From positions 28,053-92,052 of the IMG/VR virus record IMGVR_UViG_3300027833_001310: a DNA stretch of 64,000 nt; one strand, given 5' to 3'. Position 1 is the stretch's first letter; each line of letters opens with the position of its first letter. The translations under genes were made by a program, and so were the position numbers. This DNA is from a virus. The notes under the pieces were generated by a model. It was not told the origin of the DNA, ran no database searches, and saw only the letters and a list, made by a program, of their open reading frames with translations. Positions 21,827-39,112 of this stretch are shown piece after piece.

Positions 21827-22165
21827 TTACGCTATCTCCGAATTCATTGCAGTACTTGCTGCACCTTGAGCTAAATCAGATACAGTGTTTGCTGCTGCTT
21901 CATCATCACCTGTGCTTATTTCTGCAGGTAACTGATTTTTAGGTTTAATTATATCTCTGTTTACACTACTAGCATGTCCGCTCTTATCAATTGCTGTAAT
22001 AAGTTCGTCTGTTGTAGTAACATAGCCTTGCTTGGCTAATAATGATCTAAATTCTTCAGTAGGAATATCTTCTACACCCTTAGCTGCTACTTTTGTTAGC
22101 AAGTCTTGTATGGTTAGAATTAAGTCGGAAAAATATCCTTCTGATATTACTTCTCTAATTAACAT
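21827..22165 (-). CDS. putative head-associated protein with CTS-like leader
   Basis: MLIREVISE. Confidence 0.65.
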   Translation of the reverse strand: MLIREVISEGYFSDLILTIQDLLTKVAAKGVEDIPTEEFRSLLAKQGYVTTTDELITAIDKSGHASSVNRDIIKPKNQLPAEISTGDDEAAANTVSDLAQGAASTAMNSEIA

Positions 22166-22166
22166 T

Positions 22167-23471
22167 TTAGACCTCTACTGGGTTTCTACCTAACGGCTCT
22201 TCTTCTGGGCCTGCTGCGGCAGGTACGTTAACATCCATTGCCGGCTCTTCTAATCCTACTTCTGCTGGTGCTGCGCCTAAATCAGCAGTATCACCTAAAC
22301 CCATATCATCTGAGTTTACAACACTGCCTGCACCAATTAAGCCGCCTATAGCATTATCAATTCCTGCTTTAGCACCTTTAGATGCCTCAATGTATGTTGC
22401 TAATAAACCGTTAACGCTGTCTGCAAAAGTAGCTGCTGCTTGAGCACCCATTTCACCACGCATTTGATCTGCAATTGCTGGTATACTTTCGTTTGCCATA
22501 CGTCCAATCTCTTCTACATGGTCTTGAATATCGTCTGCTAATGCTCTTACTGCCATTACAACTTCTGCTTCTTCTACTGAAGTACCTTCAAGTTCTTCGT
22601 TAATCATGTCGTCTACTAGGCTGTCAAACATTGTGCCTTCGTTTTTCTTTTCGTCTTTTGTATCACCAGTGACATCGTATTCTTCGCCGTCTACTGTAAA
22701 TTTCTTTTCGCCTTTTGCAATAGCATCTTTTCTAGCACCAGTAAATTTGTTTTGTTCTGCTACTTTAGCACCAAACATTTTAATACCGTTTCCAACTGCA
22801 TCTTCTTCTAAACTGTTTAGGAAACCAACAACTGCATCTCTGCTTTTTTCTGTTACTTTAGCAAAAGATTCTAATTTCTCTTCAATTGCTTGTAGGCTTT
22901 CTGTACCTGATAATTCAACACCACACTCTTTAGCAAGTTCTCTAAGTAAAGAATCGTTAAGGTCTGTTTCTGGGATATACTCGCCTTCTTCTTCGATACT
23001 TTCATGTGTACCACCACATGATTCTACATAGCTTTTTGCTGCTGAAAGGATAATTGGCATAACGTGTTCGTCATCATATGCAAAACGTGAATCCATTCTA
23101 TATTGATTCATGCACTCGCCACAAGCCTCATCCATTGTGTAGCCACTGTCCATTAAGTTACAAACACTTGCATTGATCATTTCTTTCATCTCACCATGTG
23201 CAGGTGATTCGGCATACATGCCTTCATTGATCATAGTTTGAACAACATCTTTGATGCCTAAAAACTTTGCGTATTCTAGCTCTTGCTGGAACTTAGTGTT
23301 GACACTTTTAATTTTGTTAATGCTTGCATTAGCAGTTTCTAGTAAACTATCTAGTTTTGCTTTCTTAGGAAATCCAGCAGTCTTTAGTGAGACTCCAAAC
23401 TCTTCCTTTAGCATTTTGTTAACTTTAGCGATTTTCTTTACGCCTTTTTGATTGAATTCTTTTAAAAACAT
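22167..23471 (-). CDS. putative prohead core/scaffold-like protein
   Basis: Acidic and helical, many [ILV]xE sites; late promoter 23509-23516. Confidence 0.6.
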   Translation of the reverse strand: MFLKEFNQKGVKKIAKVNKMLKEEFGVSLKTAGFPKKAKLDSLLETANASINKIKSVNTKFQQELEYAKFLGIKDVVQTMINEGMYAESPAHGEMKEMINASVCNLMDSGYTMDEACGECMNQYRMDSRFAYDDEHVMPIILSAAKSYVESCGGTHESIEEEGEYIPETDLNDSLLRELAKECGVELSGTESLQAIEEKLESFAKVTEKSRDAVVGFLNSLEEDAVGNGIKMFGAKVAEQNKFTGARKDAIAKGEKKFTVDGEEYDVTGDTKDEKKNEGTMFDSLVDDMINEELEGTSVEEAEVVMAVRALADDIQDHVEEIGRMANESIPAIADQMRGEMGAQAAATFADSVNGLLATYIEASKGAKAGIDNAIGGLIGAGSVVNSDDMGLGDTADLGAAPAEVGLEEPAMDVNVPAAAGPEEEPLGRNPVEV

Positions 23472-23531
23472 TTTTTTATTTCCCAGGTATTAAATTCTCT
23501 ATTACTGTTATTTATCATCTTTGCGAACATT

Positions 23532-23921
23532 TTAGTTGAACCGTTTCAGTTCATCCTTGGTAAAATTGAACTTGCAGATAGTATCAAACAATCTAGCCTC
23601 AACTACTTCCCCTAATGTAAAGTCTTTTGTGTGCTTGAGGGTGTGTCTATAGAACATAATGTCGTTTTTACATCTAAAATATTGTGTCATTAAGCCTTCT
23701 AATTTAATTTTATTTGTTAAACTTATTGCTTTTCCTTTGTTACGCAACTTACATAAGTATGTTGCTACACATTTCATAGGAAGTTCTTTTGCTACAACTG
23801 CTTTTGTGATATGCTCTTGTACTACAAATGTATCATCTTGTTTAGTTACAACGTATACACCTTTTCTAGCAACGTTAGTCGCTATAGCATCTAATTGTTT
23901 AGTGAGTCTTTGTTTGTTCAT
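23532..23921 (-). CDS. hypothetical basic protein
   Basis: Start MNKQRL, 5 nt after CATAAATA. Confidence 0.7.
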   Translation of the reverse strand: MNKQRLTKQLDAIATNVARKGVYVVTKQDDTFVVQEHITKAVVAKELPMKCVATYLCKLRNKGKAISLTNKIKLEGLMTQYFRCKNDIMFYRHTLKHTKDFTLGEVVEARLFDTICKFNFTKDELKRFN

Positions 23922-23944
23922 ATAGGTATTTATGAACAGATGTT

Positions 23945-24166
23945 CTATAGTTTTTGTTTTGCTGAGTATAATGTATAACACTCGCAACCATTTTTTACTT
24001 CTTTTTGAAAAATATTCTTTTGGTGCATCTCATTTGCAAGGTATGCATCACGTTCAGAAAGCTCTATTAATTTTAATACGCCAAACATTTCAGCCTGATC
24101 GTATAGTTGTGTTTCAAACTTATTAATCAAACTTATCTGGTTGTCTTTACATTTAACTGCTCTCAT
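23945..24166 (-). CDS. hypothetical protein (73 aa)
   Basis: ATG 5 nt after GGTAAATA. Confidence 0.7.
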   Translation of the reverse strand: MRAVKCKDNQISLINKFETQLYDQAEMFGVLKLIELSERDAYLANEMHQKNIFQKEVKNGCECYTLYSAKQKL

Positions 24167-24167
24167 A

Positions 24168-25079: not shown

Positions 25080-25100
25080 ATGTATTACCTGTTCTGTGTG

Positions 25101-25610
25101 TTAAATATTTTGCTGATGTCTAGACTTTTTAGGCTTGCCATAGCCTCCAGTTTGCAGAGTAGCCTCGGCATGCATTGCTGCCATGTGCTTTTTATATTTC
25201 TTAGTACCTTTTTTATGTGGGCTTTTACCTTCTCCCATGCTGATGCCAAAGTTGTTGTCTAGTAGATCTTCTATGTTAGTATCGTAGTCTACGACTTTAA
25301 AATTTTTGTCTATCAGTAATGCTACATTATCTTCGTAACCGTGATTCTCGCCACTAAGTATTTGATAACCATCTTCAATCTCTATAAGATCTTCTTGATA
25401 TTCCCAAGCACTAATAATTTCTTCTTTTTTGCTTTGTGTAATTTCTGGGACTACTGCATTTTCATCAACTGCTTTCTTTTTCTTTTTCTTAGGAGTTGTA
25501 TTAGCAAACACACTTGCATTAGGTCTTTTTTGCATGCCGCCTAGTGGAGCAGCAACTGTAGCAATACCACCTGCACTAGTTGTTTCTTGTATAATGTCAT
25601 TAATCTTCAT
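25101..25610 (-). CDS. modular head-associated protein with CTS-like leader
   Basis: MKINDIIQE; alternating basic and acidic modules bounded by Glu sites. Confidence 0.65.
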   Translation of the reverse strand: MKINDIIQETTSAGGIATVAAPLGGMQKRPNASVFANTTPKKKKKKAVDENAVVPEITQSKKEEIISAWEYQEDLIEIEDGYQILSGENHGYEDNVALLIDKNFKVVDYDTNIEDLLDNNFGISMGEGKSPHKKGTKKYKKHMAAMHAEATLQTGGYGKPKKSRHQQNI

Positions 25611-25631
25611 AGTAGTATTTACCGTTTTTTA

Positions 25632-26168
25632 TTATGTTAGTCTAACGTTTACGATATCCCAGTTAATAATACGCCACATATTGTTTAAGTATTTGCCTTT
25701 GTCATGCTGGTAATCTAATGCCCAAGCATGTTCCCACCAGTCAACTAACATTGCTATGTCATTTTTAACTTGGTGATTAACTATTGTTTTGATGTCGCCT
25801 GATGTACTCATGTATACCCAACCGCTACCTTGTATCTTCATTGCTACTTGTTCAAACTCTTCTTTGAATGCATTGTAGTTGCTATACTTGCTGTCTATTA
25901 GCTCTTTACTTGCACCAGTAGGGTTGTTACTGCCACTTGGTGCTTTTAGTTGTGGGAAGAATACATTGTGTAGGAATGCGCCTGCTTCCATAAACTGTGC
26001 ATCGCCTTTGCCTTCGTTATATTTTGTAACGTATGCTTTTGCAAGTTTGCCATAATGAAAATTTATAGTGTCTTCGCTCATAACAGGATCAAGATCATTT
26101 TTACCGTAAGGTAACTTTTCTTGTACAAGTACTTTCTTTTCTTCTGTTAAAAATTCATTTAGTTTCAC
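25632..26168 (-). CDS. sod: Fe/Mn superoxide dismutase with CTS-like leader
   Basis: LPY, FHYGK, FLHN, QGSGW, DWWEHAW; N-terminus MKLNEFLTEE. Confidence 0.92.
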   Translation of the reverse strand: MKLNEFLTEEKKVLVQEKLPYGKNDLDPVMSEDTINFHYGKLAKAYVTKYNEGKGDAQFMEAGAFLHNVFFPQLKAPSGSNNPTGASKELIDSKYSNYNAFKEEFEQVAMKIQGSGWVYMSTSGDIKTIVNHQVKNDIAMLVDWWEHAWALDYQHDKGKYLNNMWRIINWDIVNVRLT

Positions 26169-26362
26169 TTCTTCTTCCCACCTTTCATATTAGCACACCA
26201 TTGATACATTTTGCCTTTCTCGCCACTATACTTTTTAGCCTTTGCTTTCAAATCAGTAACTGAGCCTTTACAACTAGCACCTGCTTTCTTTACTCTGCCA
26301 GGTCTGCTTTTGCCTTTCTTTTTACCGTCAGTGAAATTTTCTGTAATTTCAACTATTTTCAT
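26165..26362 (-). CDS. small basic head-associated protein
   Basis: MKIVEITE then Lys/Gly-rich body. Confidence 0.7.
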   Translation of the reverse strand: MKIVEITENFTDGKKKGKSRPGRVKKAGASCKGSVTDLKAKAKKYSGEKGKMYQWCANMKGGKKK

Positions 26363-29300
26363 TAGTTACTACTGTCTACAATTGATGTATTTGCAAATGG
26401 ATTTTCATTTGTTGTTACAAGATAGTTTGTCTTTGCGTGTAGTCTTAACCCGGAACCTTCTAAGTCTTTAACGTCTTGTATAAATGTAAACGTCTGCTTT
26501 TTAAGATCTAAGAAAAGTATTCCTTTAAGATTACCACCACCTCTTTTTGCTGCAAGATAGTTATTAACATTAGACTGTGCTATGGCTTGCATTGCACCGG
26601 TAATGTTATTTTGTGCTAAGTTTTGTGCTATCTGGTTGCCAGCATTAGGTATTTCTGTAAAGATATTTGAAATAATATCTGCTATTTCTTTTTCTGCTTC
26701 AGGTACTAACTTCAAGAAAGCTGCAACATGATTTTGTTGCATACCTGATTTGACTCTTAACACTGCACCCTGTGCTTCTAGTTCTTTAAACTTCTCATCA
26801 TACTTTGTAAAGAATGCTGTTACTTTAGACTTGTATGAATCTGATACAGTAACTTGTCTGTCATTAAATCTAGCAGAATTTTTTCTTGTTGTTTTTAATT
26901 CAATTGGTTGACCGTCAATCATTAAGTCACCTTTGCCATCGTCAGCACCTGATGATGCTCCCATGCCGCCAATTCTCTGTGACAATACTGAAAGTGCAAA
27001 CTCACCTGGGCCAATACCATACTGTACAACTTCATTTAAGTCGTTAACTAATTCTGTTATGTGCTCGTTGCCTTCCATTCCGTAACCAACAAATATCTCA
27101 GACATAGTATCAGTAGATGTAGACAACAATGTATCAACTCTAACTAATTTATCTCCCTTCCAATCTATGAAAAGTTTTGCTCTTTCTGCTGGCGTCATTT
27201 CTATACTTGCAATAATCTTTGCAATTTGTTTAATTGCTTTCTTAACATCCTCATCAGGTACTTCACCTAATTGGCTGCTTAAACTTTGTATTTTACCACC
27301 TACGCCCATATCATCTAACAGTTGTTCAATGTAGTTAACTAATTTATTAGTTTTTTCATCATCTGGTAAGTCGGCTAATTTTTTGATCAGCTCTGATTTA
27401 CTTTCAGTTATTCCTGCTTTCTTTTTAGTTTCTGGGTGTACTTTGTTTTGTACAAAACCTTTGAATATAGTACGCAAATCAGTGTCTGGTCCACCGCCAC
27501 TAGCTGCTTCTCTGAATGCTCTGATCATACTAGGATCTGGTACTACAAAGTATGCTTCCATTTGCGATTTTAAATCACTAGCAAGTAAAGGAACATTTAA
27601 TAACTGTTTTATTTTCTTTACAGGTGAGTTGTCTGGTACAGCACCTTCTGTATATTTTGCTGCTCTGCCTGATCCTGACTTGTTAGGATGTTCAAATCCT
27701 TTGCCTTTCTTTTTCTTTTTACCAGGCGTACCGTAAGTAGTTAATAATGCAGCCATATCTTGTTCTGCTTCAATAGTTTCATTTAATTTTTTCTTAGATA
27801 CTATTAGTGCTTCGTTTATCTTCGTAGCATCAACTTTACTAACTATTTCTAACTGTTTTTTAAATGGTAATTTGTTAAAATTCTCAAACATGTTATTACT
27901 CTCTTCTATATCACTAAATCTTATATTCATTTCTTGCGCCATGTATTCTCTTTCTGATGCATCAGTTTCTTGGTGTGTTCCTACTATGAATGGACTCTTT
28001 TCCCCTGCAAGGCTAAATGCGTCTGGATTGAAATCTCTATCTCTGTAAGGTAGGAAGCCATGCTTCTTGCTAAAAGTATCTATTTTTACTTTAGCATCTA
28101 ATGTCTGTTCTTGATATCTTTCGGCTTTTTGTTTTCTATGAATTATTAAATCTTTTATTCTTTTTATCTTTTCATCTGTTTCGGTATCTTCGTTAGTTCT
28201 ACTACTTCCCTGTGCATGTGCAGGGTGATCAGCATCTATTAGGTCTGTAGTATCAACCCCGCCTGCTTTGTATGCTGATACTATCGATGATACTTCATCC
28301 CACTGTACAGGATTGCCACCGTTTTCCTTGTTGTACACTAATGCATTTAGAACATCTTGTTTTGCATTATTACTTGTTTCTAAGTTGTTAATCCATCTTG
28401 CTAGTTTTACAGCATTAACTCTTGGATCAGCCATGAAGTGACCGAATCCAGTGAACCACATTTTTTTATAGAGAGGAAAATCATTTTCCGCCATCTCAAT
28501 TGCTGCTTGATTACTAAAAGTAGATGGGTCATTATCTGACGCATCTGAGGTACCTGTTGTGCCTAGTTGCTCTAATTCTTTTTCATAGTCGGCAACCATT
28601 TTAAGTTCGCCTTGAGCATCAATCATTCCTTCATTGTAATCATATAATGCTCTGTATACTTCATTATGTTCATCGCGACTAATAGCTTTAAAATCTTCTG
28701 CTTTAAACTTTTTACCCGGAGGTGTCTTTATTGGAGCTCCTGATATAAGTTTGTTACCCATTTCTGTTTGGAGCCAATTGTAGTATGGTACTGGTAAAAA
28801 CAATGCATCGGTGCCGTTGTACTTAACAGTAAATTCTGGTGTTGGTGCTTTTGCTACCTTAACTTTGAATGCGTTATTAAACGCATCAGCAAACTTTGTC
28901 ATGTTATCGTGGTAAGGTGACCCACCAATATTTAACATAGGTACATATTGTTTACTTGCTAAAAATTCTTTATAAAGAGATTCTGGTGTGAATCCAAAAT
29001 CTTTCATTGCTTGTCTAAAGCCTGCTACTTGTTGCACTTTAACAGGATTACGATTTTTCCCTGTTGCTATAGAACTTAGTAGATAACCAAAAGCAGTAAG
29101 ACTGTAATCACGAGCACGATCATTCCAACTCTCTTCTTCTTTGATAATACTTTCTTCTGCGTTCTCTCTTTTAGATCTTGCAAGTGCATTGTATGCTGTA
29201 GCAAGAGCGTCTATAGCGTCGGTGTAATGATTTTTGCCCACCACACTTTTAAATGCATCTACTACTTTCTTATCAGTATTATCTGGGTCAATTCTACTAG

Positions 29301-31230
29301 ATGCTCTTTCTTCTTGGTCTGGATCAATCGCATCTAAACTATTAACGAAACGGAATAATGCTTTAATATAATCTTTTCTAAAAGCCTCTTTATCGTGTCC
29401 TGCTCTCATAACTGCTGCATATCGTATTGTTGTTTTAGCAACGGTGTCAAAGTCCATGTGGTACCCGTCACCACCTGCTATACGAAATTCAATCAAGCCA
29501 TTGCCATCATCATTTGTTGCATCTTTAAAATTAATACTGGTAAACTTACCAGCACTAATACCGCCTTTGAGCATATCTTCTAAAGCTGAAAGGGTTTTTT
29601 CGTCTTTGTAATTAGCACCTACATTTTGCATGTATTGTTGTATTTCTTTTACTTGCGACTTAGTATAACTGTTACCATCTCTGTTAAACTGTTGTAACAA
29701 ATATTTGTCACCAAGTAATAATGCAATCTTTAATTTGTTAGGTGCTTCTTGATTGCCCGCCATACTCATTGTAACATGTAGTCCAGTAGATCTATTTGTA
29801 TCTACATTTCTATCACTCCAATGTGAAAATAAACTTTTCATTTCGGCAAGCATTTCTGTTGGGGTGTCGTACACTGGTGAAATAATTTCAGCACCCATTC
29901 CGTCACCTTCGATACTGCTGTCGTCTTCTACTCGCCAGTAATCGTTGTCAACTTGTTGACCACTGTGGTAATCTCCTGCTTCAACGTTGTCTGATTTACT
30001 TGAGTTACTTGCCCAGTCACGAAGCTGATCTGCAACTTCTTCCATGCTACCTTGACTGTTGCTGTAAAGATATATGTCCATCTCACTTAGCAACGATCCC
30101 CAGTTGCCGTTGTATTCTTCACTACACCAATCATCTTCGTCGACATTGCTTAATGCTCGATCCCATGCTTCGTCCCACTGCTCGCCATTGTCTCTGATAT
30201 CATCTGCTAACCATTCTAAAAAGTGATCTTCGCGTTCGGCATCAACATATTCTCTGGCCCATGCATCTTCTTCCCAGTCACTTCGTTCTTCTATTTCTTC
30301 CTGTGCTTGACGATCATCTTGATCTTCTAAACCCTGTAGTATCATTTCTTTGTAGTTTGTTACATCATCCATGTCAACTTCGTATGAAACATAATTATCT
30401 AAATAGTCAGGATCTTCTTTGCGTTCGTCTACTAGTTCATTTATTACTTCACTTTCGTAATCATAAAACTTATCAGACTCTTGTAGCCATTCTCTAAATG
30501 CTTCATTTACTTGGTCAACACTTCTAGAGCCTTCTTGATCATATATTAAGTCTTGTACTCCAGACCAGTTTTCACCATATAGAAAGTCCTCATCATCGTC
30601 GCCCGATGAAAAGCCTTCCCATATTGTTTCTGCTTCAAAACCACATCTAATGTTTGCGTTTAATGAATCTTTTGCAACTGTAGGACTATTGAAATTTATT
30701 TCAAATATTGGATCACCTTGTTGTATATATTTTTGTGCTCTGATTAATCTTTTGATTTTACTTTTAATTTTTTGCTTACGCTTTTGTCCTTTGTGAAGAT
30801 CTGATCTTTCTGTTACTGCTTCTTCACCTGGTAATGTAATATCATCTTCAGGATCTAATGTATAAAATTCTTTGTTCTTTTGATTTTGTACAACAACTGC
30901 ATCTTTGTTTAGGCCGTTGTTTACAGGGCTCATTACTTTAACTGTATTGCCTTTGTCGTCTTGGTATTCGAAGTCTTGTGCTAACTCTTTTGCTTTTGAT
31001 ATAATTGGCTCAACTGGTTCTGGTTGTTCAGCGTCTGTTTTATTTTGCTGACTGCTAGGACTAACTTGTGGTTTATTAACACTGGACTTTGGCGGCTTAG
31101 GTGTCTTAGTGGCTGCTGTTGCTTTAGCAGTTGCACCAGTCTGTTGTTGTGATGAGGGAGTGCTTACTCCGCTATTCATTCCATACTCAGAGATCAGTGA
31201 TTTGATTGTGCGAATATCTTTTGCCTTCAT
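26362..31230 (-). CDS. 1622-aa multidomain protein: amidoligase (COOH-NH2 ligase) plus C-terminal PD-(D/E)XK-like nuclease
   Basis: GFEAE, DSSI, AEIISP, TGLHV, IEFR; C-terminal GPGE...GDL...IELKT. Confidence 0.75.
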   Translation of the reverse strand: MKAKDIRTIKSLISEYGMNSGVSTPSSQQQTGATAKATAATKTPKPPKSSVNKPQVSPSSQQNKTDAEQPEPVEPIISKAKELAQDFEYQDDKGNTVKVMSPVNNGLNKDAVVVQNQKNKEFYTLDPEDDITLPGEEAVTERSDLHKGQKRKQKIKSKIKRLIRAQKYIQQGDPIFEINFNSPTVAKDSLNANIRCGFEAETIWEGFSSGDDDEDFLYGENWSGVQDLIYDQEGSRSVDQVNEAFREWLQESDKFYDYESEVINELVDERKEDPDYLDNYVSYEVDMDDVTNYKEMILQGLEDQDDRQAQEEIEERSDWEEDAWAREYVDAEREDHFLEWLADDIRDNGEQWDEAWDRALSNVDEDDWCSEEYNGNWGSLLSEMDIYLYSNSQGSMEEVADQLRDWASNSSKSDNVEAGDYHSGQQVDNDYWRVEDDSSIEGDGMGAEIISPVYDTPTEMLAEMKSLFSHWSDRNVDTNRSTGLHVTMSMAGNQEAPNKLKIALLLGDKYLLQQFNRDGNSYTKSQVKEIQQYMQNVGANYKDEKTLSALEDMLKGGISAGKFTSINFKDATNDDGNGLIEFRIAGGDGYHMDFDTVAKTTIRYAAVMRAGHDKEAFRKDYIKALFRFVNSLDAIDPDQEERASSRIDPDNTDKKVVDAFKSVVGKNHYTDAIDALATAYNALARSKRENAEESIIKEEESWNDRARDYSLTAFGYLLSSIATGKNRNPVKVQQVAGFRQAMKDFGFTPESLYKEFLASKQYVPMLNIGGSPYHDNMTKFADAFNNAFKVKVAKAPTPEFTVKYNGTDALFLPVPYYNWLQTEMGNKLISGAPIKTPPGKKFKAEDFKAISRDEHNEVYRALYDYNEGMIDAQGELKMVADYEKELEQLGTTGTSDASDNDPSTFSNQAAIEMAENDFPLYKKMWFTGFGHFMADPRVNAVKLARWINNLETSNNAKQDVLNALVYNKENGGNPVQWDEVSSIVSAYKAGGVDTTDLIDADHPAHAQGSSRTNEDTETDEKIKRIKDLIIHRKQKAERYQEQTLDAKVKIDTFSKKHGFLPYRDRDFNPDAFSLAGEKSPFIVGTHQETDASEREYMAQEMNIRFSDIEESNNMFENFNKLPFKKQLEIVSKVDATKINEALIVSKKKLNETIEAEQDMAALLTTYGTPGKKKKKGKGFEHPNKSGSGRAAKYTEGAVPDNSPVKKIKQLLNVPLLASDLKSQMEAYFVVPDPSMIRAFREAASGGGPDTDLRTIFKGFVQNKVHPETKKKAGITESKSELIKKLADLPDDEKTNKLVNYIEQLLDDMGVGGKIQSLSSQLGEVPDEDVKKAIKQIAKIIASIEMTPAERAKLFIDWKGDKLVRVDTLLSTSTDTMSEIFVGYGMEGNEHITELVNDLNEVVQYGIGPGEFALSVLSQRIGGMGASSGADDGKGDLMIDGQPIELKTTRKNSARFNDRQVTVSDSYKSKVTAFFTKYDEKFKELEAQGAVLRVKSGMQQNHVAAFLKLVPEAEKEIADIISNIFTEIPNAGNQIAQNLAQNNITGAMQAIAQSNVNNYLAAKRGGGNLKGILFLDLKKQTFTFIQDVKDLEGSGLRLHAKTNYLVTTNENPFANTSIVDSSN

Positions 31231-31240
31231 AACTTGTCAA

Positions 31241-31522
31241 TTACCGCTTGTTAAGTGTTTTTAATCGCTTTGCTACTGGATTAAATCTTTTTGTTCTACG
31301 AGCTTTACGAATCATTCTTTTGCCCATTTTTGCTTTTGTTCTTCTCAATGTCATACGCTTTTTGAGATCTATGGGTTTCGAACATTGGCTTGAATTTTTT
31401 ACAACTCTGCCTGCTCTAGGACCACTAGTACAACGAACAGCACGTTTAATTGTGTTGCCCATTCGGCGCCAAACCATACGAGCTTCGACTATTTCACCGC
31501 CTGTTACTTCATCAAGTTTCAT
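31241..31522 (-). CDS. very basic prohead-core-like protein
   Basis: MKLDEV...IVE then Arg/Lys-rich. Confidence 0.65.
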   Translation of the reverse strand: MKLDEVTGGEIVEARMVWRRMGNTIKRAVRCTSGPRAGRVVKNSSQCSKPIDLKKRMTLRRTKAKMGKRMIRKARRTKRFNPVAKRLKTLNKR

Positions 31523-31771: not shown

Positions 31772-32176
31772 TTATAATAAGTCCTGTTTAGTAAACTCCA
31801 TGTTCACTGTAGTTTTTGTATCAATTGTGCCTGCATTTAAAACAATTCCGTCAAGTTCATCTTTTAATGTATCAATGCTATGCACACTTTCACGCTCAAA
31901 AGCAAATTTGAAAATCCAGCCTGCGCCTGTTATTGATGGAGCACCGTATCCTTGTAATACGTTAGCACCTACACCATTTAAGGCAACTGGTCTGTTCATG
32001 ATGATTGGCATAGCTCTTAATCCAATAACTTGAACAACACTTTCAAAATCCTTCTGCGTGTCATCTGTAAAATCACCTGTATGTGTAATATCTAGTGATG
32101 TGAAAAGTGTGTAAAATTCTATATTTCCTGTAACAACTTCTTGGCTGTTCATTGCGCCGCTTCTATTTAAAGTCAT
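31772..32176 (-). CDS. small virion structural protein
   Basis: Own late promoter 32196-32203 and SD AGGAG. Confidence 0.65.
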   Translation of the reverse strand: MTLNRSGAMNSQEVVTGNIEFYTLFTSLDITHTGDFTDDTQKDFESVVQVIGLRAMPIIMNRPVALNGVGANVLQGYGAPSITGAGWIFKFAFERESVHSIDTLKDELDGIVLNAGTIDTKTTVNMEFTKQDLL

Positions 32177-32270: not shown

Positions 32271-32313
32271 GGTGTGCAACTAAGCACGATCCCTAAGGTA
32301 GTAAGGAATTAGT

Positions 32314-32607: not shown

Positions 32608-32668
32608 TTTATCTCTCCAATATAGTCAGGCTTTCTTGCCCTATACTAATATTTATCAAATTATACCC

Positions 32669-32697
32669 AAAAAAAATCCCCACAAGTGAGGATTTTT
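32669..32697 (-). terminator. intrinsic terminator
   Basis: AAAAATCCTCAC/GTGGGGATTTTT plus T-run. Confidence 0.8.
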
Positions 32698-32717
32698 AAA
32701 CAATAATTGTTTGGATA

Positions 32718-32960: not shown

Positions 32961-33051
32961 TTTAATTCTCCTAAATATAATGTAGAGTTAATTCTTACTC
33001 TATGTAGTTATTTATCATTTTATCGGTAAAAAAAGATATAAAAACTGTCTT

Positions 33052-33597
33052 TTATGATTTTTTAACTCTAAAAGTATCAGAATTTTTAAAGTTAGACCTT
33101 GCTTTTGCCAATCCACTACCGATTGCTTTTCTTAAACTTGATCGATCGGTGCCGGCAAGAGGATTAAATTTTGAATTTTTAAAAGAGCCATCACCTTTAT
33201 AAGCATTTTTATTGCCTATTTGTCCACCTACAGTTCCTGTTGGCGTTGGCGTAGCATCCGGCTTTTCCATGCCCTTTGCAATTTTCTGCTGTAAGGTATC
33301 TTCCGGCTCTTTTACTTTATCGGCCGTTGCAACTGCTTTGGCCTGATCTTTTGTCATGCCACTGTATTTTACTTGAAAGTCTGGATATCTTTGTTTGACA
33401 GCACCCTTTATTGACATGCCAGCTGTCCACAAAGGTCTTTTGTAATAGCCTACTGCTAGTGCAACAACACTTGCTCTGTCTAACATTATAAATTGAGGCA
33501 GTTTCGGATTGCCGTATTCGTCATCAAATTCCTGTCCTAATTCCTGTCTTAGCTCAGCATCGTTATTTTCTAGTATAATAATTTCGTCTATTCTCAT
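33052..33597 (-). CDS. hypothetical protein with CTS-like leader
   Basis: MRIDEIIILE; GATAAATA 5 nt upstream. Confidence 0.65.
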   Translation of the reverse strand: MRIDEIIILENNDAELRQELGQEFDDEYGNPKLPQFIMLDRASVVALAVGYYKRPLWTAGMSIKGAVKQRYPDFQVKYSGMTKDQAKAVATADKVKEPEDTLQQKIAKGMEKPDATPTPTGTVGGQIGNKNAYKGDGSFKNSKFNPLAGTDRSSLRKAIGSGLAKARSNFKNSDTFRVKKS

Positions 33598-33609
33598 GCT
33601 TGTATTTAT

Positions 33610-34152
33610 CTACTTAAACATAGCACAAGACATATTGTCGTCATGGCCGGTCTCAAACACTGCTAATTCTTTGTTTGTCCTTTGCTGGAATGCATCTACC
33701 GCAGCCATTACCCCTGGGAATATAGGCGTATAATCATCTACTAATATAATTTCTGCTTTTGTCATTATTCTTAATGCATTACGAGTATGCCTATAAGTAT
33801 GAGAAGCATCAAGAAATAACACTGTTGGTGTCTCCCAATACCTCTTGAAAAAATCACATCTAGTAAATGATATGTTGTCCCATGCGTCTACTACCTGGCT
33901 AATATACTCTAGTTGTTGTTCGCTAGTGTATGATATTCCGTCTATATTAAAGCCATGACATTGGTCAATAGTATGTATAGTATAATCTCTGCCTGTTTCA
34001 TTGAACTTTTCAGCAAAGGTAGCTGCTGACAAACCACATCCTGTGCCAACTTCTAGTAACGTGCCAGACATAGGCAATTGATCAATAATTTCGTCCCATG
34101 GGTAATTTTTATTAGAGAACCCTGGAATAGTATCGCTGAGTTCGATTGACAT
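33610..34152 (-). CDS. class I SAM-dependent methyltransferase
   Basis: LEVGTGCGLS, FLDASH, VDDY, PGV. Confidence 0.85.
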   Translation of the reverse strand: MSIELSDTIPGFSNKNYPWDEIIDQLPMSGTLLEVGTGCGLSAATFAEKFNETGRDYTIHTIDQCHGFNIDGISYTSEQQLEYISQVVDAWDNISFTRCDFFKRYWETPTVLFLDASHTYRHTRNALRIMTKAEIILVDDYTPIFPGVMAAVDAFQQRTNKELAVFETGHDDNMSCAMFK

Positions 34153-34157
34153 TATAC

Positions 34158-34958
34158 TTATTTCTTCTTTCTACCAGCTGCCCAATAGCCTGCAATTGCA
34201 CCTATACCTGTGCCTGCTTTTTTAAGTGTACCAGGTTTATTTTTAGCAAGTTTTGTTAGTTTCTTAGCGGCATATCTTCCTGCAACTGCACCAAGTGCTG
34301 CTCCACCAACTTTTTTTGCAAAACTAGTTCTAGGTACATCATATGCTGGCTCTGACGTAAATGATCTATACTTGACCATAGATGTCATTGGAGCTAAAAG
34401 TTCACTGCCTCTTCCTAAGTAACGCATTGTTTGTAATAGTTTAGTCACTACTAACTGTCTACTTGAAAATTTTAAGTTACCCCAGTCGGTAATATATCTA
34501 CGGTATTGTTTAAATTTAGAATCTGTAACCTTAAGTTGTGACTCTAGTCTAAAGAAGTAACCTACTGCTTCATTTTTTCTATCTGAACCATTTGCTATCT
34601 TCTTCATAAACATAAAGTGCTTACGACTATCAAAGTTTAATCCCTTAAGGAAAGAAACACTAGACATTCTGTTCTTTAATTGTATTTTATCATTCTTAGG
34701 TTGATTTATCATATATGCTAATAGATATAAATCAGTTGCACTTGTTCTAAAAGTATTGTAGCCACCGTACTGGGTAGTTTGCTTTGCATAGTTACTTGCA
34801 TATCCATGCTGTATATCATCTTGTACCATTAAATAAAGTGCAATAGTATTGAGATACAGTAAGTCAGCAACGTTTCTGCCAGTGAGTTGACCCATGTTAC
34901 CAGAAGATCTATACAATCTACTTTCTGATATTTCTTGATCTATAAATTCTAATTCCAT
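34158..34958 (-). CDS. putative virion protein with C-terminal glycine-zipper helices
   Basis: ISESRLYR; GGAALGAVAG and GTGIGAIAG. Confidence 0.6.
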   Translation of the reverse strand: MELEFIDQEISESRLYRSSGNMGQLTGRNVADLLYLNTIALYLMVQDDIQHGYASNYAKQTTQYGGYNTFRTSATDLYLLAYMINQPKNDKIQLKNRMSSVSFLKGLNFDSRKHFMFMKKIANGSDRKNEAVGYFFRLESQLKVTDSKFKQYRRYITDWGNLKFSSRQLVVTKLLQTMRYLGRGSELLAPMTSMVKYRSFTSEPAYDVPRTSFAKKVGGAALGAVAGRYAAKKLTKLAKNKPGTLKKAGTGIGAIAGYWAAGRKKK

Positions 34959-36247
34959 TATCCTGTTGGCTTCCCTGTTCCAAAGTTTAATCTACTGAAT
35001 TCCATTCTGTCAACTAGTTTGAGAGCATTACCAATTCGGTCAATAGCAACAAAGCCTTCACCACTTGTGGCTTTAAATCCTTCACCATCTGCGGCAAACG
35101 TTTGTGTACTTTGTAATTTTCCTAACTTTGCTATGATTACAAGTTTTGCTTTAATAAGCATCAAGTATAAATCATACACTGCTGTAATTTCAGCAGCATG
35201 TTGTTTAATGAATGCTACAGTCTTAACCATACTATCTGTTTTAGCATCTTTAGTTTTTTGCATTTTAACTTTATCAATTTCTTTTGTAGACCTGTCGATC
35301 CATTTTACAACAAATTCTTTTGCTAAACTTTCAGGGGAGCCAAAGTCTCCTGCTCTAATCTTATTGTTTACTGTGGCTTTTAGTTGTTGTAAGAAATCTT
35401 TACCTACTAAGTCGTTGCCTTTCTCTAACCAATTAAACACATCTTTACTAATTTGCTTAGTGTAAGTGTCGGCGGCTTTGATAGTTGCTAATACTTCTGC
35501 TGATTCTTCAGCAGTCATTGTTACTGTACCTGATACATCTTTGATGTTTGCATCAGTTTGCCAAACACTAGATGTACTACCTAATCTAGTTGAATCAAAT
35601 CCAAATGATGCTGTTGTATCTGCTAGTGTTGGTCCGCCTGCATACTCTGTATGCCACACTATACCTAGATCAGCACTTAGCATTTGCTGTGCTAGTTCAC
35701 TGTCCTTTGGTAAAGCATAAGCAAGAGTATTAGGCTTAAAATATATTAAGGCTTCTCCATCATGATTCATTTCTTTGATGTCGCCTTTTTGAAACATCAT
35801 GTCGCCTTGTGCAACTGTGTCCCAATTCAATTTGCTTAAATGTTTTAAACAATTTTTTAATTTGATTCGTAAACCACTGCCGTCTTTGTCACCTTTGTCT
35901 GCGTGATAGTTGTCAATGTCTTGGTCAGTAAAGTTTAGTTTTGCTTTTCCGGCAAACACACCTTTAGTACCTACAAAGAATTTGCCAGTTGCTGGATCTT
36001 TACCTGCTACGATTGCTGGTGAGCCGTCCCACTTCACAGTCATATCAAAGGCACCCTTTGCTGAGCCTTCTAACATTTGATGTAAACTGTATAAGTAATC
36101 TACTGCTTCTTTGGCTCCTTGATATCCTTTGTTAAAGATATTATCTTCAAGGTGTTCCATGTGAGTATTCTTGCCGTCTGCTTCCAGTAACAAGCTCTCA
36201 TTGATTACTCTAGTAACTAGAGGTTTAGATATCTCTATAAAACGCAT
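34958..36247 (-). CDS. ligase-fold nucleotidyltransferase-like protein with CTS-like leader
   Basis: KWDG (motif I), QGD, EGFV (motif IV), LKLV (motif V); KNTHMEHLED. Confidence 0.6.
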   Translation of the reverse strand: MRFIEISKPLVTRVINESLLLEADGKNTHMEHLEDNIFNKGYQGAKEAVDYLYSLHQMLEGSAKGAFDMTVKWDGSPAIVAGKDPATGKFFVGTKGVFAGKAKLNFTDQDIDNYHADKGDKDGSGLRIKLKNCLKHLSKLNWDTVAQGDMMFQKGDIKEMNHDGEALIYFKPNTLAYALPKDSELAQQMLSADLGIVWHTEYAGGPTLADTTASFGFDSTRLGSTSSVWQTDANIKDVSGTVTMTAEESAEVLATIKAADTYTKQISKDVFNWLEKGNDLVGKDFLQQLKATVNNKIRAGDFGSPESLAKEFVVKWIDRSTKEIDKVKMQKTKDAKTDSMVKTVAFIKQHAAEITAVYDLYLMLIKAKLVIIAKLGKLQSTQTFAADGEGFKATSGEGFVAIDRIGNALKLVDRMEFSRLNFGTGKPTG

Positions 36248-39112
36248 TTATATGCCTGCTAAACTTTTCATTTCTTGTAAAGACACAGATTCTTCTAATA
36301 CATTTAGTTCTTTTAATGGAAACAACATTACATTACTTTCCGTTACAGAAGCTCTATATCCTAAATCTTCCCAACTAAGGTTTGCATATTCAAGTATCTT
36401 ACACAAATGCTCATATGCTTCTGTTCTCATACCTCTTGCTATTTTAACAAGATGCGTGTATAATTCTTTATTGTTTTTCATGAATTCTGGATTTCTTTTT
36501 AACACTGGTGCAACTGCACTTGCATATTGCGAAATCTCTTTAGGATCTCCGCCTGCTTTTAACTTAGTTGATAAAAGTTCGACCATGCCTTTTGCGGATT
36601 CAACATCTCCTGTTGATATAACTTTTTGTTGGTAAGCACCTAACTGCCTATGAGATTGTGGACTTAGTGACTTAACATCTGGCTGTTGTTGAGCATCTGC
36701 ACTTGCCGCTGGTTGTTCACCTGCTTGTGGCTGTGCTGGCTGTGCCGGTTGTCCTGGCTGTGCTGGTTGCTCTGGTGTTCCTGGTTCCTCTGGAGTTCCT
36801 GGTTCTGCTTGCTTACCACCTCCTGACTTACCAAACATTCCGCCAATTGCTGCTCCAGCCATACCTGCTAATTTTTTTCCAGTACTTGCATTAGGATCTG
36901 ATCGTGTTGCTTGAGCTAAACCTGGTGTTTTGCCGCTTATATAATCTTTTGCTCTACCTATAATGCCTTTCTTTAATGGTGTACCGTCACCGTTTCTGCC
37001 ATACTGTTTCATTAACTCTTGTTGCATTGCACCTGATGCAGGTCTACCCATTTCATCTTTCCAACCTGTGCCGTCAAATGTAAATTTAATTTTATTAACT
37101 GTGGCTGTCTTTCCTGCTTTCAATTCTGGTAAGTTTGAATCGTCTGCTGGCTCTTCTTCTCCGTCTGCTGGTGCTGGTGTTGCTCCACCTTTTGCTTGTT
37201 GAACACCTTGTTGTATAGCACCCTGTCCACCTGCAGAACCGCCTGCAGCACCGCTTGTAGTGCCCTGTGCGCCTGTTTGTGGTTCACCTGGGGTACTTGC
37301 ACCCTGAGGAGCAATTGGTGCGCCTGTAGCGTCATCTTTTCCGTCTTGGTTAGCATCTGCTTGTGGTTGTTCTTGCCCTGCTTGTGGTTGTTCACCACCT
37401 GCTTGTGGTTGTTCTTCTGGTTCTGGCTTTGCTGTAGGTGCAGTTGGTGCTGGTAACTCAGGTCCTGCTGTTGCAATATCCTCTGGTTCCATACCACCCT
37501 GTGCTAATATGTTTGCAATTGATTGAGAATCTGTTGGCTTCTTAGCCTTGTTCCATAATGCTGTAAGTTTTTTAACAGTAATGCTATTACCTAACTCTTT
37601 GCCTGTTTCTTTTGCTTTGCCTACTAATGCTCCACCTACTTTCTTAGCGGCTCCACCAACTACTGCGGCTGCTTTTGCAGCTCCACGTTTAATGTCTGCC
37701 ATTCCAATTTCATTTACTAGTTGTTGTTCTGCTTCATTTAGTGGTATGCCGGATAAGTGCTTAGTGTAAAGTAAATTGTAATCAATACTTTCTGCTTTAG
37801 GATTTTGTTCTGCTTCTGGTTCTGCTTTCTTTCCAGGTATTGTTGCGGCTGTTGCAGCACCTTGGCCTAATGCTGATGCTATGTCAGTAATTTTTGCCAT
37901 CTTAGCAACATCTTTTGCAGCGTCACCTGTTAAGGCTGATATTTCTGCTTGTAGTCCAGGATCTTCTAACGCTGCCTGACCTGCGTCGAAGATAGCATTA
38001 GATGCTTTTATACCTGCGTCTTTGATTTGCATTAGCATTGATTGATCAGTAGTTGCTTTAATTTGTTCAATATAGTTATATGCTTTTGCTGTTTGCTGTA
38101 CTGCTTCATCACCAAATGAATTAAACTGCGATGCTGCATCTTTTAATGCATTGTATTGTTCATACTGATCCATGGTCATTATAACATTGCCACTAAAATA
38201 ATTTCCTGTAGTACCTGTAGTCGATACAGACAAGTCTACTGAACCGTCTGGGAATGTTTGATTCCATAATTCTTTCGCTGGGCCGCCTTGTGCTATAGCT
38301 TCTCTAGTGTACTCATCTACTGTTGCATCCTGCAATGATTGAGTAGCAGTCGCTAAATCTGATTCGACACCACTAGAGAACATATCTGTTAGTTCGCTAC
38401 CTAGGAATTGAAATGCTTTACCTGCTAAGAAACCAGCAACTGCTGTCTTAGCACCTTTGCCTACTGCTGTTGAAAGTTTATCACCTGCTAGTAAATCATT
38501 ACCTAACCTTAAAACAAAACCTGCTGCGGCACCGCCTGCTGGGCCAGCACCAAATGCTGCTGCTGTTGTTAGTAGTGCTATTAAGAATTTTGTTTTACCT
38601 GGATTGTCCTTGGCTGCTTCTGCCATCTTAGCAATAGCTTTGTTAACTTTAGAATCTTTGCCACCTAGTTTAGTGTTTAAATCTAGTTTTGCTTTTTCAA
38701 ATGCTGCATCTAATCCTTTAACCGGTGCAGTATCTTGTATCATTGCTCCAAGTTCATTAACTTTAGCATTGATCTTTTTCATTACATCGGCAGCTACTTT
38801 GACGCCACCGACAACTGCTTTACCTGCGTCTTGTGCCGCAAGTCCTGCTTGTCCTAATTTTGTTTTGTACTTACCAGAGTCAACTGCAACTTTTTCTGCA
38901 TTGCCGAAGATTGATGTAATCTGATCTGCTGTGAGTTCAGCTTCTGCTAAACTTTGATATTCTTCTAGTAAAGGCCAAAGTTCTTTTTCCCATCTATTAA
39001 CGTAGGCTTTAGTATCTTCGTCTAGTTGTTGCCAAACCCCTTCAGTTAAAATCTGATGACTTTTGCTTTCGTATAGGTTTAACTTGGTGTTAAGTGAATC
39101 ACGTAATATCAT
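36248..39112 (-). CDS. 954-aa putative internal virion/ejection protein
   Basis: Ala/Gly-rich hydrophobic helices, Pro/Gln linkers, many [ILV]xE sites, C-terminal LAGI. Confidence 0.6.
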   Translation of the reverse strand: MILRDSLNTKLNLYESKSHQILTEGVWQQLDEDTKAYVNRWEKELWPLLEEYQSLAEAELTADQITSIFGNAEKVAVDSGKYKTKLGQAGLAAQDAGKAVVGGVKVAADVMKKINAKVNELGAMIQDTAPVKGLDAAFEKAKLDLNTKLGGKDSKVNKAIAKMAEAAKDNPGKTKFLIALLTTAAAFGAGPAGGAAAGFVLRLGNDLLAGDKLSTAVGKGAKTAVAGFLAGKAFQFLGSELTDMFSSGVESDLATATQSLQDATVDEYTREAIAQGGPAKELWNQTFPDGSVDLSVSTTGTTGNYFSGNVIMTMDQYEQYNALKDAASQFNSFGDEAVQQTAKAYNYIEQIKATTDQSMLMQIKDAGIKASNAIFDAGQAALEDPGLQAEISALTGDAAKDVAKMAKITDIASALGQGAATAATIPGKKAEPEAEQNPKAESIDYNLLYTKHLSGIPLNEAEQQLVNEIGMADIKRGAAKAAAVVGGAAKKVGGALVGKAKETGKELGNSITVKKLTALWNKAKKPTDSQSIANILAQGGMEPEDIATAGPELPAPTAPTAKPEPEEQPQAGGEQPQAGQEQPQADANQDGKDDATGAPIAPQGASTPGEPQTGAQGTTSGAAGGSAGGQGAIQQGVQQAKGGATPAPADGEEEPADDSNLPELKAGKTATVNKIKFTFDGTGWKDEMGRPASGAMQQELMKQYGRNGDGTPLKKGIIGRAKDYISGKTPGLAQATRSDPNASTGKKLAGMAGAAIGGMFGKSGGGKQAEPGTPEEPGTPEQPAQPGQPAQPAQPQAGEQPAASADAQQQPDVKSLSPQSHRQLGAYQQKVISTGDVESAKGMVELLSTKLKAGGDPKEISQYASAVAPVLKRNPEFMKNNKELYTHLVKIARGMRTEAYEHLCKILEYANLSWEDLGYRASVTESNVMLFPLKELNVLEESVSLQEMKSLAGI

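What the first reader, a model, noticed from the sequence alone, without database searches (positions are those of the whole stretch)
21827..39112. Shared capsid-targeting-like leader marks a payload of head-packaged enzymes
Seen: about ten unrelated ORFs in one late block start with a similar leader, M-[KR/hydrophobic]-[ILF]-x-[ED]-[IFV]...[ILV]xE: MLIREVISE, MFLKEF, MKINDIIQE, MKLNEFLTE, MKIVEITE, MKAKDI..LISE, MKLDEV..IVE, MRIDEIIILE, MELEF..ISE, MRFIEI..INE. MKLLNEYITE at 63367 also fits. The replication genes lack it. Known: T4 internal proteins use a ~10-aa capsid-targeting sequence of this type, removed by the gp21 protease after [IL]xE. Inference: the phage tags enzymes (SOD, ligase-fold protein, amidoligase/nuclease) for packaging and injection with the DNA, a modular protein-delivery system acting before any transcription.
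Basis: partly seen in the sequence, partly recalled or inferred. Interest (0 to 1): 0.85.

Follow-up and report, generated by a model that had tools for sequence, protein, structure and literature searches.

The report
T4-style capsid-loading leaders on jumbo-phage proteins
An uncultured marine jumbo phage related to T4 puts a short T4-like "load into the head, then cut off" leader on about ten unrelated late proteins, including a superoxide dismutase. Virion proteomics of a cultured relative backs packaging, but the principle is known from T4 and this scan has already seen it in sister phages.

Summary
Ten of the eleven quoted ORFs begin with an 8-17-residue leader of the form M-[KR]-[ILF]-x-[DE]-[IFV]-[IL]-x-E. 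The eleventh (22167-23471) has only the first half.

A pattern for the short form hits 6 of 116 N-termini, against 0.2-0.4 expected. The tagged proteins are unrelated beyond residue 20.

Orthologues keep the [ILVM]-x-E boundary while the leader itself drifts. In one gene slot the cargo is replaced behind a conserved leader. The SOD and DUF6267 leaders are add-ons that other homologues lack.

The window is a 25%-complete fragment with no protease gene. A 340-kb relative and the cultured phage PA5oct both carry a T4-type head module with a gp21-family (Peptidase_S77) protease.

In PA5oct the same pattern picks six ORFs, and four are annotated as detected in purified virions (base rate 93/461, P=0.017). 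The PA5oct SOD homologue has a leader and is also marked as detected.

Best reading: T4-type capsid-targeting propeptides on head cargo. Cleavage, head location and injection are untested. The "amidoligase/nuclease" label found no support and "ligase fold" only a weak hint.

This is a new member of a known kind. The scan found the same thing before on related DNA.

The parts
21827..22165 (-). 112-aa protein with a 9-residue short-form leader ending I-S-E
   Evidence: The G001, L013 and PA5oct (EST35_0238) orthologues keep a leader ending [LV]-x-E. EST35_0238 is annotated 'structural protein, ESI-MS/MS'.
22167..23471 (-). 434-aa acidic virion-protein homologue; weak or partial leader only
   Evidence: It starts M-F-L-K-E-F but has no [ILV]-x-E until residue 23. 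phrog_14154 'virion structural protein'. The PA5oct orthologue EST35_0237 is marked as detected by mass spectrometry, and its N-terminus does end I-T-E at residue 10.
25101..25610 (-). 169-aa protein with a 9-residue leader; TAAATA box 5 nt before the ATG
   Evidence: The leader differs by one residue from that of PA5oct EST35_0150, a virion-detected 73-aa protein encoded between the portal and head-core genes.
25632..26168 (-). Fe/Mn superoxide dismutase with a 9-residue leader (GTG start)
Evidence: Pfam Sod_Fe_N 37 bits and Sod_Fe_C 75 bits. Query residue 17 aligns to residue 5 of a solved FeSOD, so there is a 12-residue N-terminal extension; the four metal ligands are visible in the alignment.
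26165..26362 (-). 65-aa very basic protein (mature pI 10.3) with an 8-residue leader
   Evidence: 92% identical in G001, leader included.
26362..31230 (-). 1622-aa acidic protein with a 15-residue long-form leader ending I-S-E
   Evidence: G001 and L013 orthologues keep the boundary ([LI]-x-E followed by Y-G-M). No Pfam, PHROG or PDB-sequence match.
31241..31522 (-). 93-aa extremely basic protein (mature pI 12) with a 13-residue leader ending I-V-E
   Evidence: The L013 orthologue keeps I-V-E followed by A-R-M-V-W.
33052..33597 (-). 181-aa basic protein with a 10-residue leader; TAAATA box 5 nt before the ATG; variable cargo slot
   Evidence: In the same slot, G001 and L013 carry 167-aa proteins whose leaders are 8/9 identical to each other. 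Their bodies are unrelated to each other, and only L013's C-terminal half matches the window protein.
34158..34958 (-). 266-aa basic protein (pI 10.3) with a 12-residue leader ending I-S-E
   Evidence: G001 and L013 orthologues keep [IL]-x-E followed by S-R-L-Y-R.
34958..36247 (-). DUF6267 protein (429 aa) with a 17-residue long-form leader and a second L-x-E about 5 residues later
   Evidence: Pfam DUF6267 331 bits from residue 27. All but one of 120 homologues at 60% identity or more (the exception N-terminally truncated) keep the extension before the conserved K-N-T-H block. The cyanophage S-CAM9 homologue starts directly at that block. Melnitz and HTVC008M have short extensions ending [IL/V]-x-E. 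AlphaFold2 pLDDT is below 50 for residues 1-31.
62672..63367 (-). 231-aa protein near the terminase gene with a 10-residue leader ending I-T-E
   Evidence: The G001 orthologue's leader is 4/10 identical, yet the mature start is conserved. phrog_14802 'virion structural protein'. The PA5oct orthologue EST35_0202 is marked as detected by mass spectrometry.

Best explanation
The leaders are T4-type capsid-targeting propeptides. Each tagged protein is made late. Its N-terminal 8-17 residues (hydrophobic or aromatic residues about 7 and 4 positions before the cut, then [ILV]-x-Glu) would bind it to the scaffolding core of the assembling prohead. The gp21-family prohead protease would then cut after the Glu, leaving the mature protein loose inside the head with the DNA. 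The cargo set is modular: the same kind of leader sits on an Fe/Mn superoxide dismutase, a DUF6267 protein, a 1622-aa giant and several small, very basic, IP-like proteins. Bodies are swapped behind a conserved leader between related phages. Shown here: the motif, its enrichment, its conservation as a protein-level feature, its add-on nature, a T4-type head module with the protease in relatives, and virion detection of PA5oct counterparts. Inferred: binding to the core, the cut itself, head-internal location and ejection into the host.
For: (1) Enrichment at N-termini, and no relatedness between the tagged bodies. (2) The signal is at protein level. Ile, Leu and Glu codons vary, and the leaders sit behind TAAATA boxes, Shine-Dalgarno-like sites and coupled stop/start overlaps alike. 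(3) In orthologue pairs the leader diverges (for example 4/10 identical) but always ends [ILVM]-x-E right before a conserved mature start. (4) Add-on nature: the SOD has a 12-residue extension over solved FeSODs, and the Vibrio phage 2.275.O SOD has no leader. The DUF6267 extension is absent in cyanophage S-CAM9 and is predicted disordered. (5) Cargo is replaced behind a conserved leader in one slot. (6) T4 sequences read from NC_000866 show the same architecture on IPII/IPIII, IPI, gp24, gp22 and gp21. The review PMC9026906 places T4 targeting at CTS residues 4 and 7 and processing at residues 8 and 10. (7) Relative G001 (SOD 86% identical, syntenic) has Portal_T4, Peptidase_S77 (85.7 bits), a coiled-coil scaffold and Gp23. 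PA5oct has Peptidase_S77 at 85 bits. The catalytic His and Ser motifs align with T4 gp21, and each major capsid protein has L-x-E just before its conserved mature core. (8) PA5oct proteomics: the helicase-to-exonuclease block syntenic with window 21.8-39 kb is mostly 'structural protein, ESI-MS/MS'. Four of six leader-pattern ORFs are marked as detected, against 93/461 overall (Fisher P=0.017). The SOD homologue is marked as detected too. (9) Several mature cargo proteins are small and very basic, like T4 internal proteins.
Against: No protease, scaffold or capsid gene lies on this 92-kb fragment, so the link rests on relatives. No N-terminal peptide data exist, so no cut is demonstrated anywhere in this lineage. 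The PA5oct virion list also contains RNR subunits and FtsH, and its authors class 7 entries as virion-unrelated enzymes, so detection is not proof of packaging. Two of six PA5oct pattern hits were not detected. The search patterns were defined after the fact. Literal similarity to the T4 CTS is not significantly enriched. Virion detection does not separate head-internal from other virion locations.
Confidence: 0.7

Rival explanations
1. The leaders are only protease-removed propeptides of ordinary structural virion or prohead-core components (as on T4 gp24, gp22, gp67/68). They would not be an address tag for an injected enzyme payload. The proteins would stay in the particle or be degraded, and would not act in the next host.
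For: T4 structural and core proteins carry very similar N-termini. PA5oct EST35_0150, whose leader is nearly the same as that of window 25101-25610, is encoded between the portal and head-core genes, where T4 has gp67/gp68. Nothing here tests injection.
Against: A soluble metalloenzyme with intact ligands (SOD) and a 331-bit DUF6267 protein are unlikely scaffold parts. Cargo bodies are swapped behind a fixed leader, as at T4 IP loci. In T4 the first 10 residues alone suffice to load foreign proteins, which are then delivered (PMC9026906).
Confidence: 0.17
2. The shared N-terminus is the recognition site of some other enzyme or partner, with virion association secondary. Candidates are a modifying enzyme (as the scan concluded for a radical-SAM-linked tag in RB43-type phages), the phage's own subtilase, a chaperone, or a Clp adaptor.
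For: Earlier scan note e1-127136 shows that a shared phage N-terminal tag can belong to a different system. The window encodes a subtilase at 10237-11868. The PA5oct SOD homologue lies among ClpX/ClpS/FtsH genes.
Against: The leaders are short and variable. They always end in the T4 protease motif, and they match T4 head propeptides. Pattern hits in PA5oct are enriched for virion detection. No modifying enzyme is consistently adjacent in the window, G001, L013 or PA5oct.
Confidence: 0.08
3. There is no biological signal. The resemblance would come from AT-rich codon bias at gene starts (M-K-I/L..E), a translation-initiation preference of late or leaderless mRNAs, or pattern picking.
For: GC is about 37%. 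Many late genes start 5 nt after a TAAATA box. The patterns were written after seeing the leaders, and BLOSUM similarity to the T4 CTS is barely enriched.
Against: Enrichment is 15-30-fold over shuffles that keep each N-terminus's composition, and it recurs in an independent genome. Codons and upstream contexts vary. Most TAAATA-N5-ATG genes lack the leader. The Glu boundary is conserved in orthologues at 58-86% identity.
Confidence: 0.05

Closest known systems
Phage T4 internal proteins IPI, IPII, IPIII with their capsid targeting sequence (CTS), processed by gp21
   Same: An extreme N-terminal 10-19-residue propeptide with hydrophobic or aromatic residues at CTS positions 4 and 7 and [IL]-x-E at the cut. 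It sits on mutually unrelated, often basic proteins at variable loci. The phage has a gp21-family protease and a T4-type head module.
   Different: The lineage is distant: helicase about 52% identical to PA5oct-type jumbo phages, with no nucleotide match to any cultured phage. There are more tagged proteins (at least 10 on a quarter of a genome). The leaders are not identical copies. The cargo includes an SOD, a DUF6267 protein and a 1622-aa protein. Nothing has been tested experimentally.
T4 Alt (packaged ADP-ribosyltransferase) and other gp21-trimmed head proteins (gp24, gp22, gp21, gp67, gp68, Inh)
   Same: This is a precedent for an enzyme carried in the head and trimmed by gp21. The gp24, gp22 and gp21 N-termini read from the T4 record have the same M...[LI]-x-E layout within about 10 residues.
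   Different: Alt is also cut at its C-terminus (PMC9026906). C-terminal processing was not examined here. gp22 and gp24 are structural or scaffold proteins, not cargo.
phiKZ / 201phi2-1 / SPN3US inner-body and ejection proteins cut by gp175/gp245
   Same: Jumbo phages load many proteins, enzymes included, into the head. A gp21-related protease cuts after Glu (PMC9026906; PMC5694885 listed).
   Different: The motif there is S/A-x-E, with long multi-site propeptides and no short shared N-terminal address. Here the motif is the T4-type [ILV]-x-E behind a short leader.
PA5oct (Arenbergviridae) virion proteome
   Same: The gene block is syntenic. Orthologues of window genes 21507-21824, 21827-22165, 22167-23471, 31772-32176, 18170-20683 and 62672-63367, and an SOD homologue, are annotated as ESI-MS/MS-detected.
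   Different: The paper (PMC7318152) mentions no leader, CTS or processing and does not mention the SOD. PA5oct has no close DUF6267 homologue.

Membership tests
T4-type capsid-targeting / prohead-protease propeptide system | Propeptide of about 10-19 residues at the extreme N-terminus | tested here: met
   Leaders of 8-17 residues starting at Met1 on 10 ORFs.
T4-type capsid-targeting / prohead-protease propeptide system | Propeptide ends in the gp21 cleavage motif [LI]-x-E | tested here: met
   P3 is I/L/V and P1 is E in all leaders, conserved in orthologues. P3 and P1 were part of the selecting pattern, so the orthologue conservation is the real test.
T4-type capsid-targeting / prohead-protease propeptide system | Hydrophobic/aromatic determinants equivalent to CTS residues 4 and 7 (PMC9026906) | tested here: met
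   Aligned at the cut, P4 is I/F/V/Y in 16 of 23 leaders and P7 is I/L/F in 13 of 23. T4 IPIII has F at P4 and Y at P7.
T4-type capsid-targeting / prohead-protease propeptide system | Genome encodes a gp21-family (Peptidase_S77) prohead protease in a T4-type head module | tested here: inconclusive
   Not on this 92-kb, 25%-complete fragment. Present in the 340-kb relative G001 (85.7 bits, with Portal_T4 and Gp23) and in PA5oct (85 bits).
T4-type capsid-targeting / prohead-protease propeptide system | Tag is shared by otherwise unrelated proteins and is separable from the fold | tested here: met
   No similarity beyond residue 20. The SOD and DUF6267 extensions are absent from other homologues. 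The body is swapped behind a conserved leader. Residues 1-31 of DUF6267 are predicted disordered.
T4-type capsid-targeting / prohead-protease propeptide system | Tagged proteins are physically in the virion | tested here: inconclusive
   This rests only on the annotated proteomics of the relative PA5oct. Four of six pattern hits and the SOD homologue are marked ESI-MS/MS. That list also holds likely contaminants.
T4-type capsid-targeting / prohead-protease propeptide system | Leader is actually removed after Glu; protein is ejected with the DNA | not testable with these tools
   This needs N-terminal or semi-tryptic mass spectrometry and infection experiments.
Fe/Mn superoxide dismutase (window 25632-26168) | Both SOD domains above Pfam cut-offs and the four metal ligands (His, His, Asp, His) | tested here: met
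   Sod_Fe_N 37 bits (cut-off 27) and Sod_Fe_C 75 bits (cut-off 20.9). The ligand positions are visible in the alignment to 8avm. The second-sphere His after the first ligand is Leu.
DUF6267 (window 34958-36247) | Full-length Pfam match above cut-off | tested here: met
   331 bits, profile positions 1-376 of 376.
ATP-dependent ligase / nucleotidyltransferase fold (claimed for DUF6267) | Sequence or fold similarity to ligases, including the K-x-D-G motif | tested here: inconclusive
   An invariant K-W-D-G is present. No PDB sequence hit. Foldseek has no hit at E<=0.001, with RNA-ligase rows only at E 0.67-1.0. The VIA-align top Z of 7.9 is helical noise. hhalign against T4 Rnl1 and Rnl2 gives probability below 1%. 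The model's mean pLDDT is 64.8.

The most novel reading that the evidence does not exclude
This lineage of abundant marine jumbo phages, and PA5oct-type phages, would load an active Fe/Mn superoxide dismutase into the capsid through a T4-type leader. Other enzymes would go in with it. The SOD would either protect the packed DNA from oxidative damage or enter the next host with the DNA and act before any phage gene is expressed. That would be a virion-borne antioxidant enzyme in a bacteriophage, and a general plug-in route for enzyme delivery outside the T-even phages.
Probability: 0.35. Interest if true: 0.6.

Novelty: new member of a known kind. Interest (0 to 1): 0.45.

Why it matters
If the leaders work as in T4, a simple sequence rule would predict the head-internal, probably injected proteome of a large, abundant and mostly uncultured group of marine jumbo phages, and of the therapy candidate PA5oct. 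These proteins are the first phage products a host meets, so they are likely anti-defence and takeover factors. It would also explain why "virion-unrelated" proteins turn up in jumbo-phage particle proteomes. PA5oct offers a cultured system in which to test whether a packaged SOD matters. The principle itself is textbook T4 biology. The gain is extension and a concrete test case, not a new mechanism.

Tried and rejected
Megablast of 21-40 kb against cultured phages found no match.

PF03420 was searched in the window's own contig and nothing was found, but the fragment is only 25% complete.

Ungapped or one-gap BLOSUM62 scoring of all N-termini against the T4 IPIII leader ranks two window leaders first (25 and 23). 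The excess over internal-Met controls is small, so I do not use it as statistical support.

The loose pattern (any [ILV]-x-E within about 20 residues) is unspecific: 14 hits in T4, about 5 of them true.

The 1622-aa protein was run against Pfam, PHROGs and PDB sequences with no hit, so 'amidoligase/nuclease' is unsupported. The 954-aa protein has no Pfam or PHROG hit.

DUF6267 as a ligase: AlphaFold2 model, Foldseek, VIA-align wide and hhalign against T4 Rnl1/Rnl2 were all inconclusive.

The PA5oct supplementary peptide tables are not held, so peptide coverage of the leaders could not be checked.

The table was rebuilt from the files instead.

I considered the leader as a nucleotide-level start signal and rejected it.

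Full report
WHAT THE WINDOW IS. The window is bases 28053-92052 of a 92-kb IMG/VR virus record that CheckV rates 25% complete. GC is about 37% and nearly all genes are on the minus strand. No cultured phage matches at nucleotide level.

The DnaB-like helicase (39410-40792) is about 52% identical to those of PA5oct-type Pseudomonas jumbo phages, and 43-52% identical to those of Atu_ph07, Phosso and Vibrio phage 2.275.O. The record also carries RNR subunits, a primase, an exonuclease and a T4-type large terminase. The DUF6267 gene next to the helicase is syntenic with HTVC008M, Melnitz and cyanomyophages. Related contigs of up to 346 kb are common in marine metagenomes.

THE OBSERVATION.
- Six ORFs carry a short form of 8-10 residues: 21827-22165, 25101-25610, 25632-26168, 26165-26362, 33052-33597 and 62672-63367.
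- Four carry a longer form of 12-17 residues ending in the same [ILV]-x-E: 26362-31230, 31241-31522, 34158-34958 and 34958-36247.
- ORF 22167-23471 has only the first half of the pattern.
- Three further leader-bearing ORFs lie upstream on the same contig.

A pattern for the short form hits 6 of 116 ORFs. Composition-preserving shuffles of residues 2-20 give 0.20 on average and never reach 6 in 2000 trials. Internal-Met windows predict 0.36. One hit (55892-56134) is probably false, because its orthologue lacks the Glu.

The patterns were written after seeing the data, so I looked for independent checks:
- In 89 kb of T4, the same pattern picks IPII and IPIII plus one other ORF among 148. A second pattern picks IPII, IPIII and the head protein Inh.
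- In PA5oct it gives 6 hits against 0.6-1.5 expected.
- Literal similarity to the T4 IPIII leader (MKTYQEFIAE) ranks two window leaders first but is not significantly enriched overall. The case rests on the pattern and on conservation, not on identity to T4.

A PROTEIN-LEVEL, SEPARABLE MODULE. Beyond residue 20 the tagged proteins share nothing. Codons for the conserved Ile, Leu and Glu vary. The leaders follow TAAATA boxes, Shine-Dalgarno-like sites and overlapping stop/start junctions alike. That argues against a nucleotide-level start signal.

The 340-kb relative G001 is syntenic, with an SOD 86% identical. In G001 and in L013 the leaders drift: the 62672-63367 pair is 4/10 identical. Every pair still ends [ILVM]-x-E directly before a well-conserved mature start.

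For DUF6267, all but one of 120 homologues at 60% identity or more (the exception N-terminally truncated) keep the extension in front of the conserved K-N-T-H block. Cyanophage S-CAM9 starts at that block. Melnitz and HTVC008M have short extensions ending in [ILV]-x-E. AlphaFold2 leaves residues 1-31 below pLDDT 50.

The SOD aligns to solved FeSODs from its residue 17 to their residue 5, so it has a 12-residue extension. All four metal ligands are kept. SOD homologues at 58-65% identity in other viral contigs also carry leaders ending [IL]-x-E, and one is fused into a 1097-aa protein. The SOD of Vibrio phage 2.275.O has no leader.

In the slot of 33052-33597, G001 and L013 carry proteins whose leaders are 8/9 identical but whose bodies are unrelated. 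Only L013's C-terminal half matches the window protein. This is the behaviour described for T4 internal-protein loci.

LINK TO THE T4 MECHANISM. I read several sequences straight from the T4 record. IPII, IPIII, IPI, gp24, gp22 and gp21 all have N-termini of the layout Met, a few residues, an acidic-plus-hydrophobic pair, then [LI]-x-E.

A review of T4 head assembly (PMC9026906) makes four relevant points:
- IP propeptides are 10-19 residues long.
- The first 10 residues of IPIII suffice for loading foreign proteins.
- Targeting depends mainly on residues 4 and 7, and processing on residues 8 and 10.

Aligned at the cut, the 23 leaders collected from this lineage have I/L/V at P3, mostly I/F at P4 and mostly I/L at P7.

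The window fragment has no head genes. G001 carries Portal_T4, Peptidase_S77 (85.7 bits), a coiled-coil scaffold and Gp23 in T4 order, and PA5oct has the same protease family. The catalytic His and Ser motifs align with gp21. The capsid proteins of G001, PA5oct and T4 each have L-x-E a few residues before their conserved mature core.

INDEPENDENT SUPPORT FROM A CULTURED RELATIVE. PA5oct particles were CsCl-purified and 93 of 461 gene products were detected by ESI-MS/MS (PMC7318152).

The PA5oct block between helicase and exonuclease/RNR is syntenic with window 21.8-39 kb and is mostly annotated 'structural protein, ESI-MS/MS'. It includes orthologues of 21507-21824, 21827-22165 (which has its own leader), 22167-23471 and 31772-32176. 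The orthologues of 18170-20683 and 62672-63367 are also detected.

Applied blind to the whole PA5oct genome, the short-form pattern picks six ORFs:
- EST35_0150, 0238, 0380 and 0381 are detected.
- EST35_0382 (64 aa) and 0415 are not.

That is 4/6 against 20% overall (Fisher P=0.017). EST35_0150 lies between the portal and head-core genes, and its leader differs by one residue from that of window 25101-25610. The PA5oct SOD homologue EST35_0261 has a 13-residue extension ending I-A-E and carries the ESI-MS/MS note.

The paper says nothing about leaders, processing or the SOD. One caveat applies: the same list includes RNR subunits and FtsH, and the authors call seven entries virion-unrelated enzymes.

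VERDICT ON THE INTERPRETATION. The best reading, at about 0.7, is that these are T4-type capsid-targeting propeptides marking head cargo. Several mature products are small and very basic (pI 10-12), like T4 IPs. Others are acidic giants or enzymes.

Not shown: the cut itself, a head-internal location and injection. 'Acting before any transcription' is inference from T4.

Of the enzyme labels only SOD is firm. DUF6267 has an invariant K-W-D-G, but no sequence, profile or fold search reached significance. The 1622-aa protein has no detectable family.

The rivals are:
- plain structural propeptides that carry no payload;
- a tag for another enzyme, as the scan concluded for an RB43-type tag (e1-127136);
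- composition bias or a start-codon context effect, which I consider excluded.

NOVELTY. The mechanism is known from T4. Extending it to a distant jumbo-phage lineage with an SOD among the cargo is a new member of that kind.

This scan has already reported the same leader on the SOD of a 340-kb relative (e1-5320286), and CTS-like leaders in several other uncultured T4-like phages.

Noticed in passing
window 25101-25610, 33052-33597, 23945-24166, 12910-13176, 58546-59808, 61398-62222, 42655-43026 and others: Thirteen genes on the contig have TAAATA (often [AG]ATAAATA, like the T4 late promoter) exactly 5 nt (3-7 nt in some) before the start codon and no Shine-Dalgarno site. This suggests leaderless or near-leaderless late mRNAs. 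Most of these genes carry no capsid leader.
   Followed up: partly
window 36248-39112 (C-terminus) and ORFs upstream of the window; PA5oct EST35_0203: A second short motif, [IL]-x-x-L-A-G-[ILV], sits at the very C-terminus of the 954-aa protein. It also sits just before an [IL]-x-E in the N-terminus of a 114-aa upstream ORF and of a virion-detected PA5oct protein. It may be another targeting or processing element.
   Followed up: no
window 10237-11868 (+): A 543-aa subtilase (Peptidase_S8, 78.7 bits) is encoded on the opposite strand from its neighbours. It has no orthologue in the 340-kb relative G001.
   Followed up: no
window 33052-34152 vs G001:201945-202448 and L013:2170-2673: This is a variable slot. 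Two window genes (181 and 180 aa) are replaced in relatives by one 167-aa gene. The relatives' leaders are nearly identical, while the bodies are unrelated or share only a C-terminal half.
   Followed up: yes
L014:6058-9351: In a more distant viral contig the SOD domain (65% identical) is embedded in a 1097-aa protein that starts with its own 8-residue leader. Neighbouring ORFs carry similar leaders.
   Followed up: partly
window 47442-49589: A MetK-like gene (orthologue 73% identical in G001, but at a different genome position) is followed by two 176-aa genes that have no G001 orthologue. Another first-stage finding notes this as a SAM-recycling operon.
   Followed up: no
window 43835-45514: A 559-aa protein has a lipoprotein-like N-terminus: a hydrophobic stretch, then Cys followed by a Gly run. 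It has no orthologue in G001.
   Followed up: no
PA5oct MK797984.1 172055-176890: The PA5oct SOD homologue lies among ClpX, ClpS, a heat-shock protein and FtsH genes, not in the virion block. Even so it carries a leader and a virion-detection note, and the FtsH gene also has that note.
   Followed up: partly
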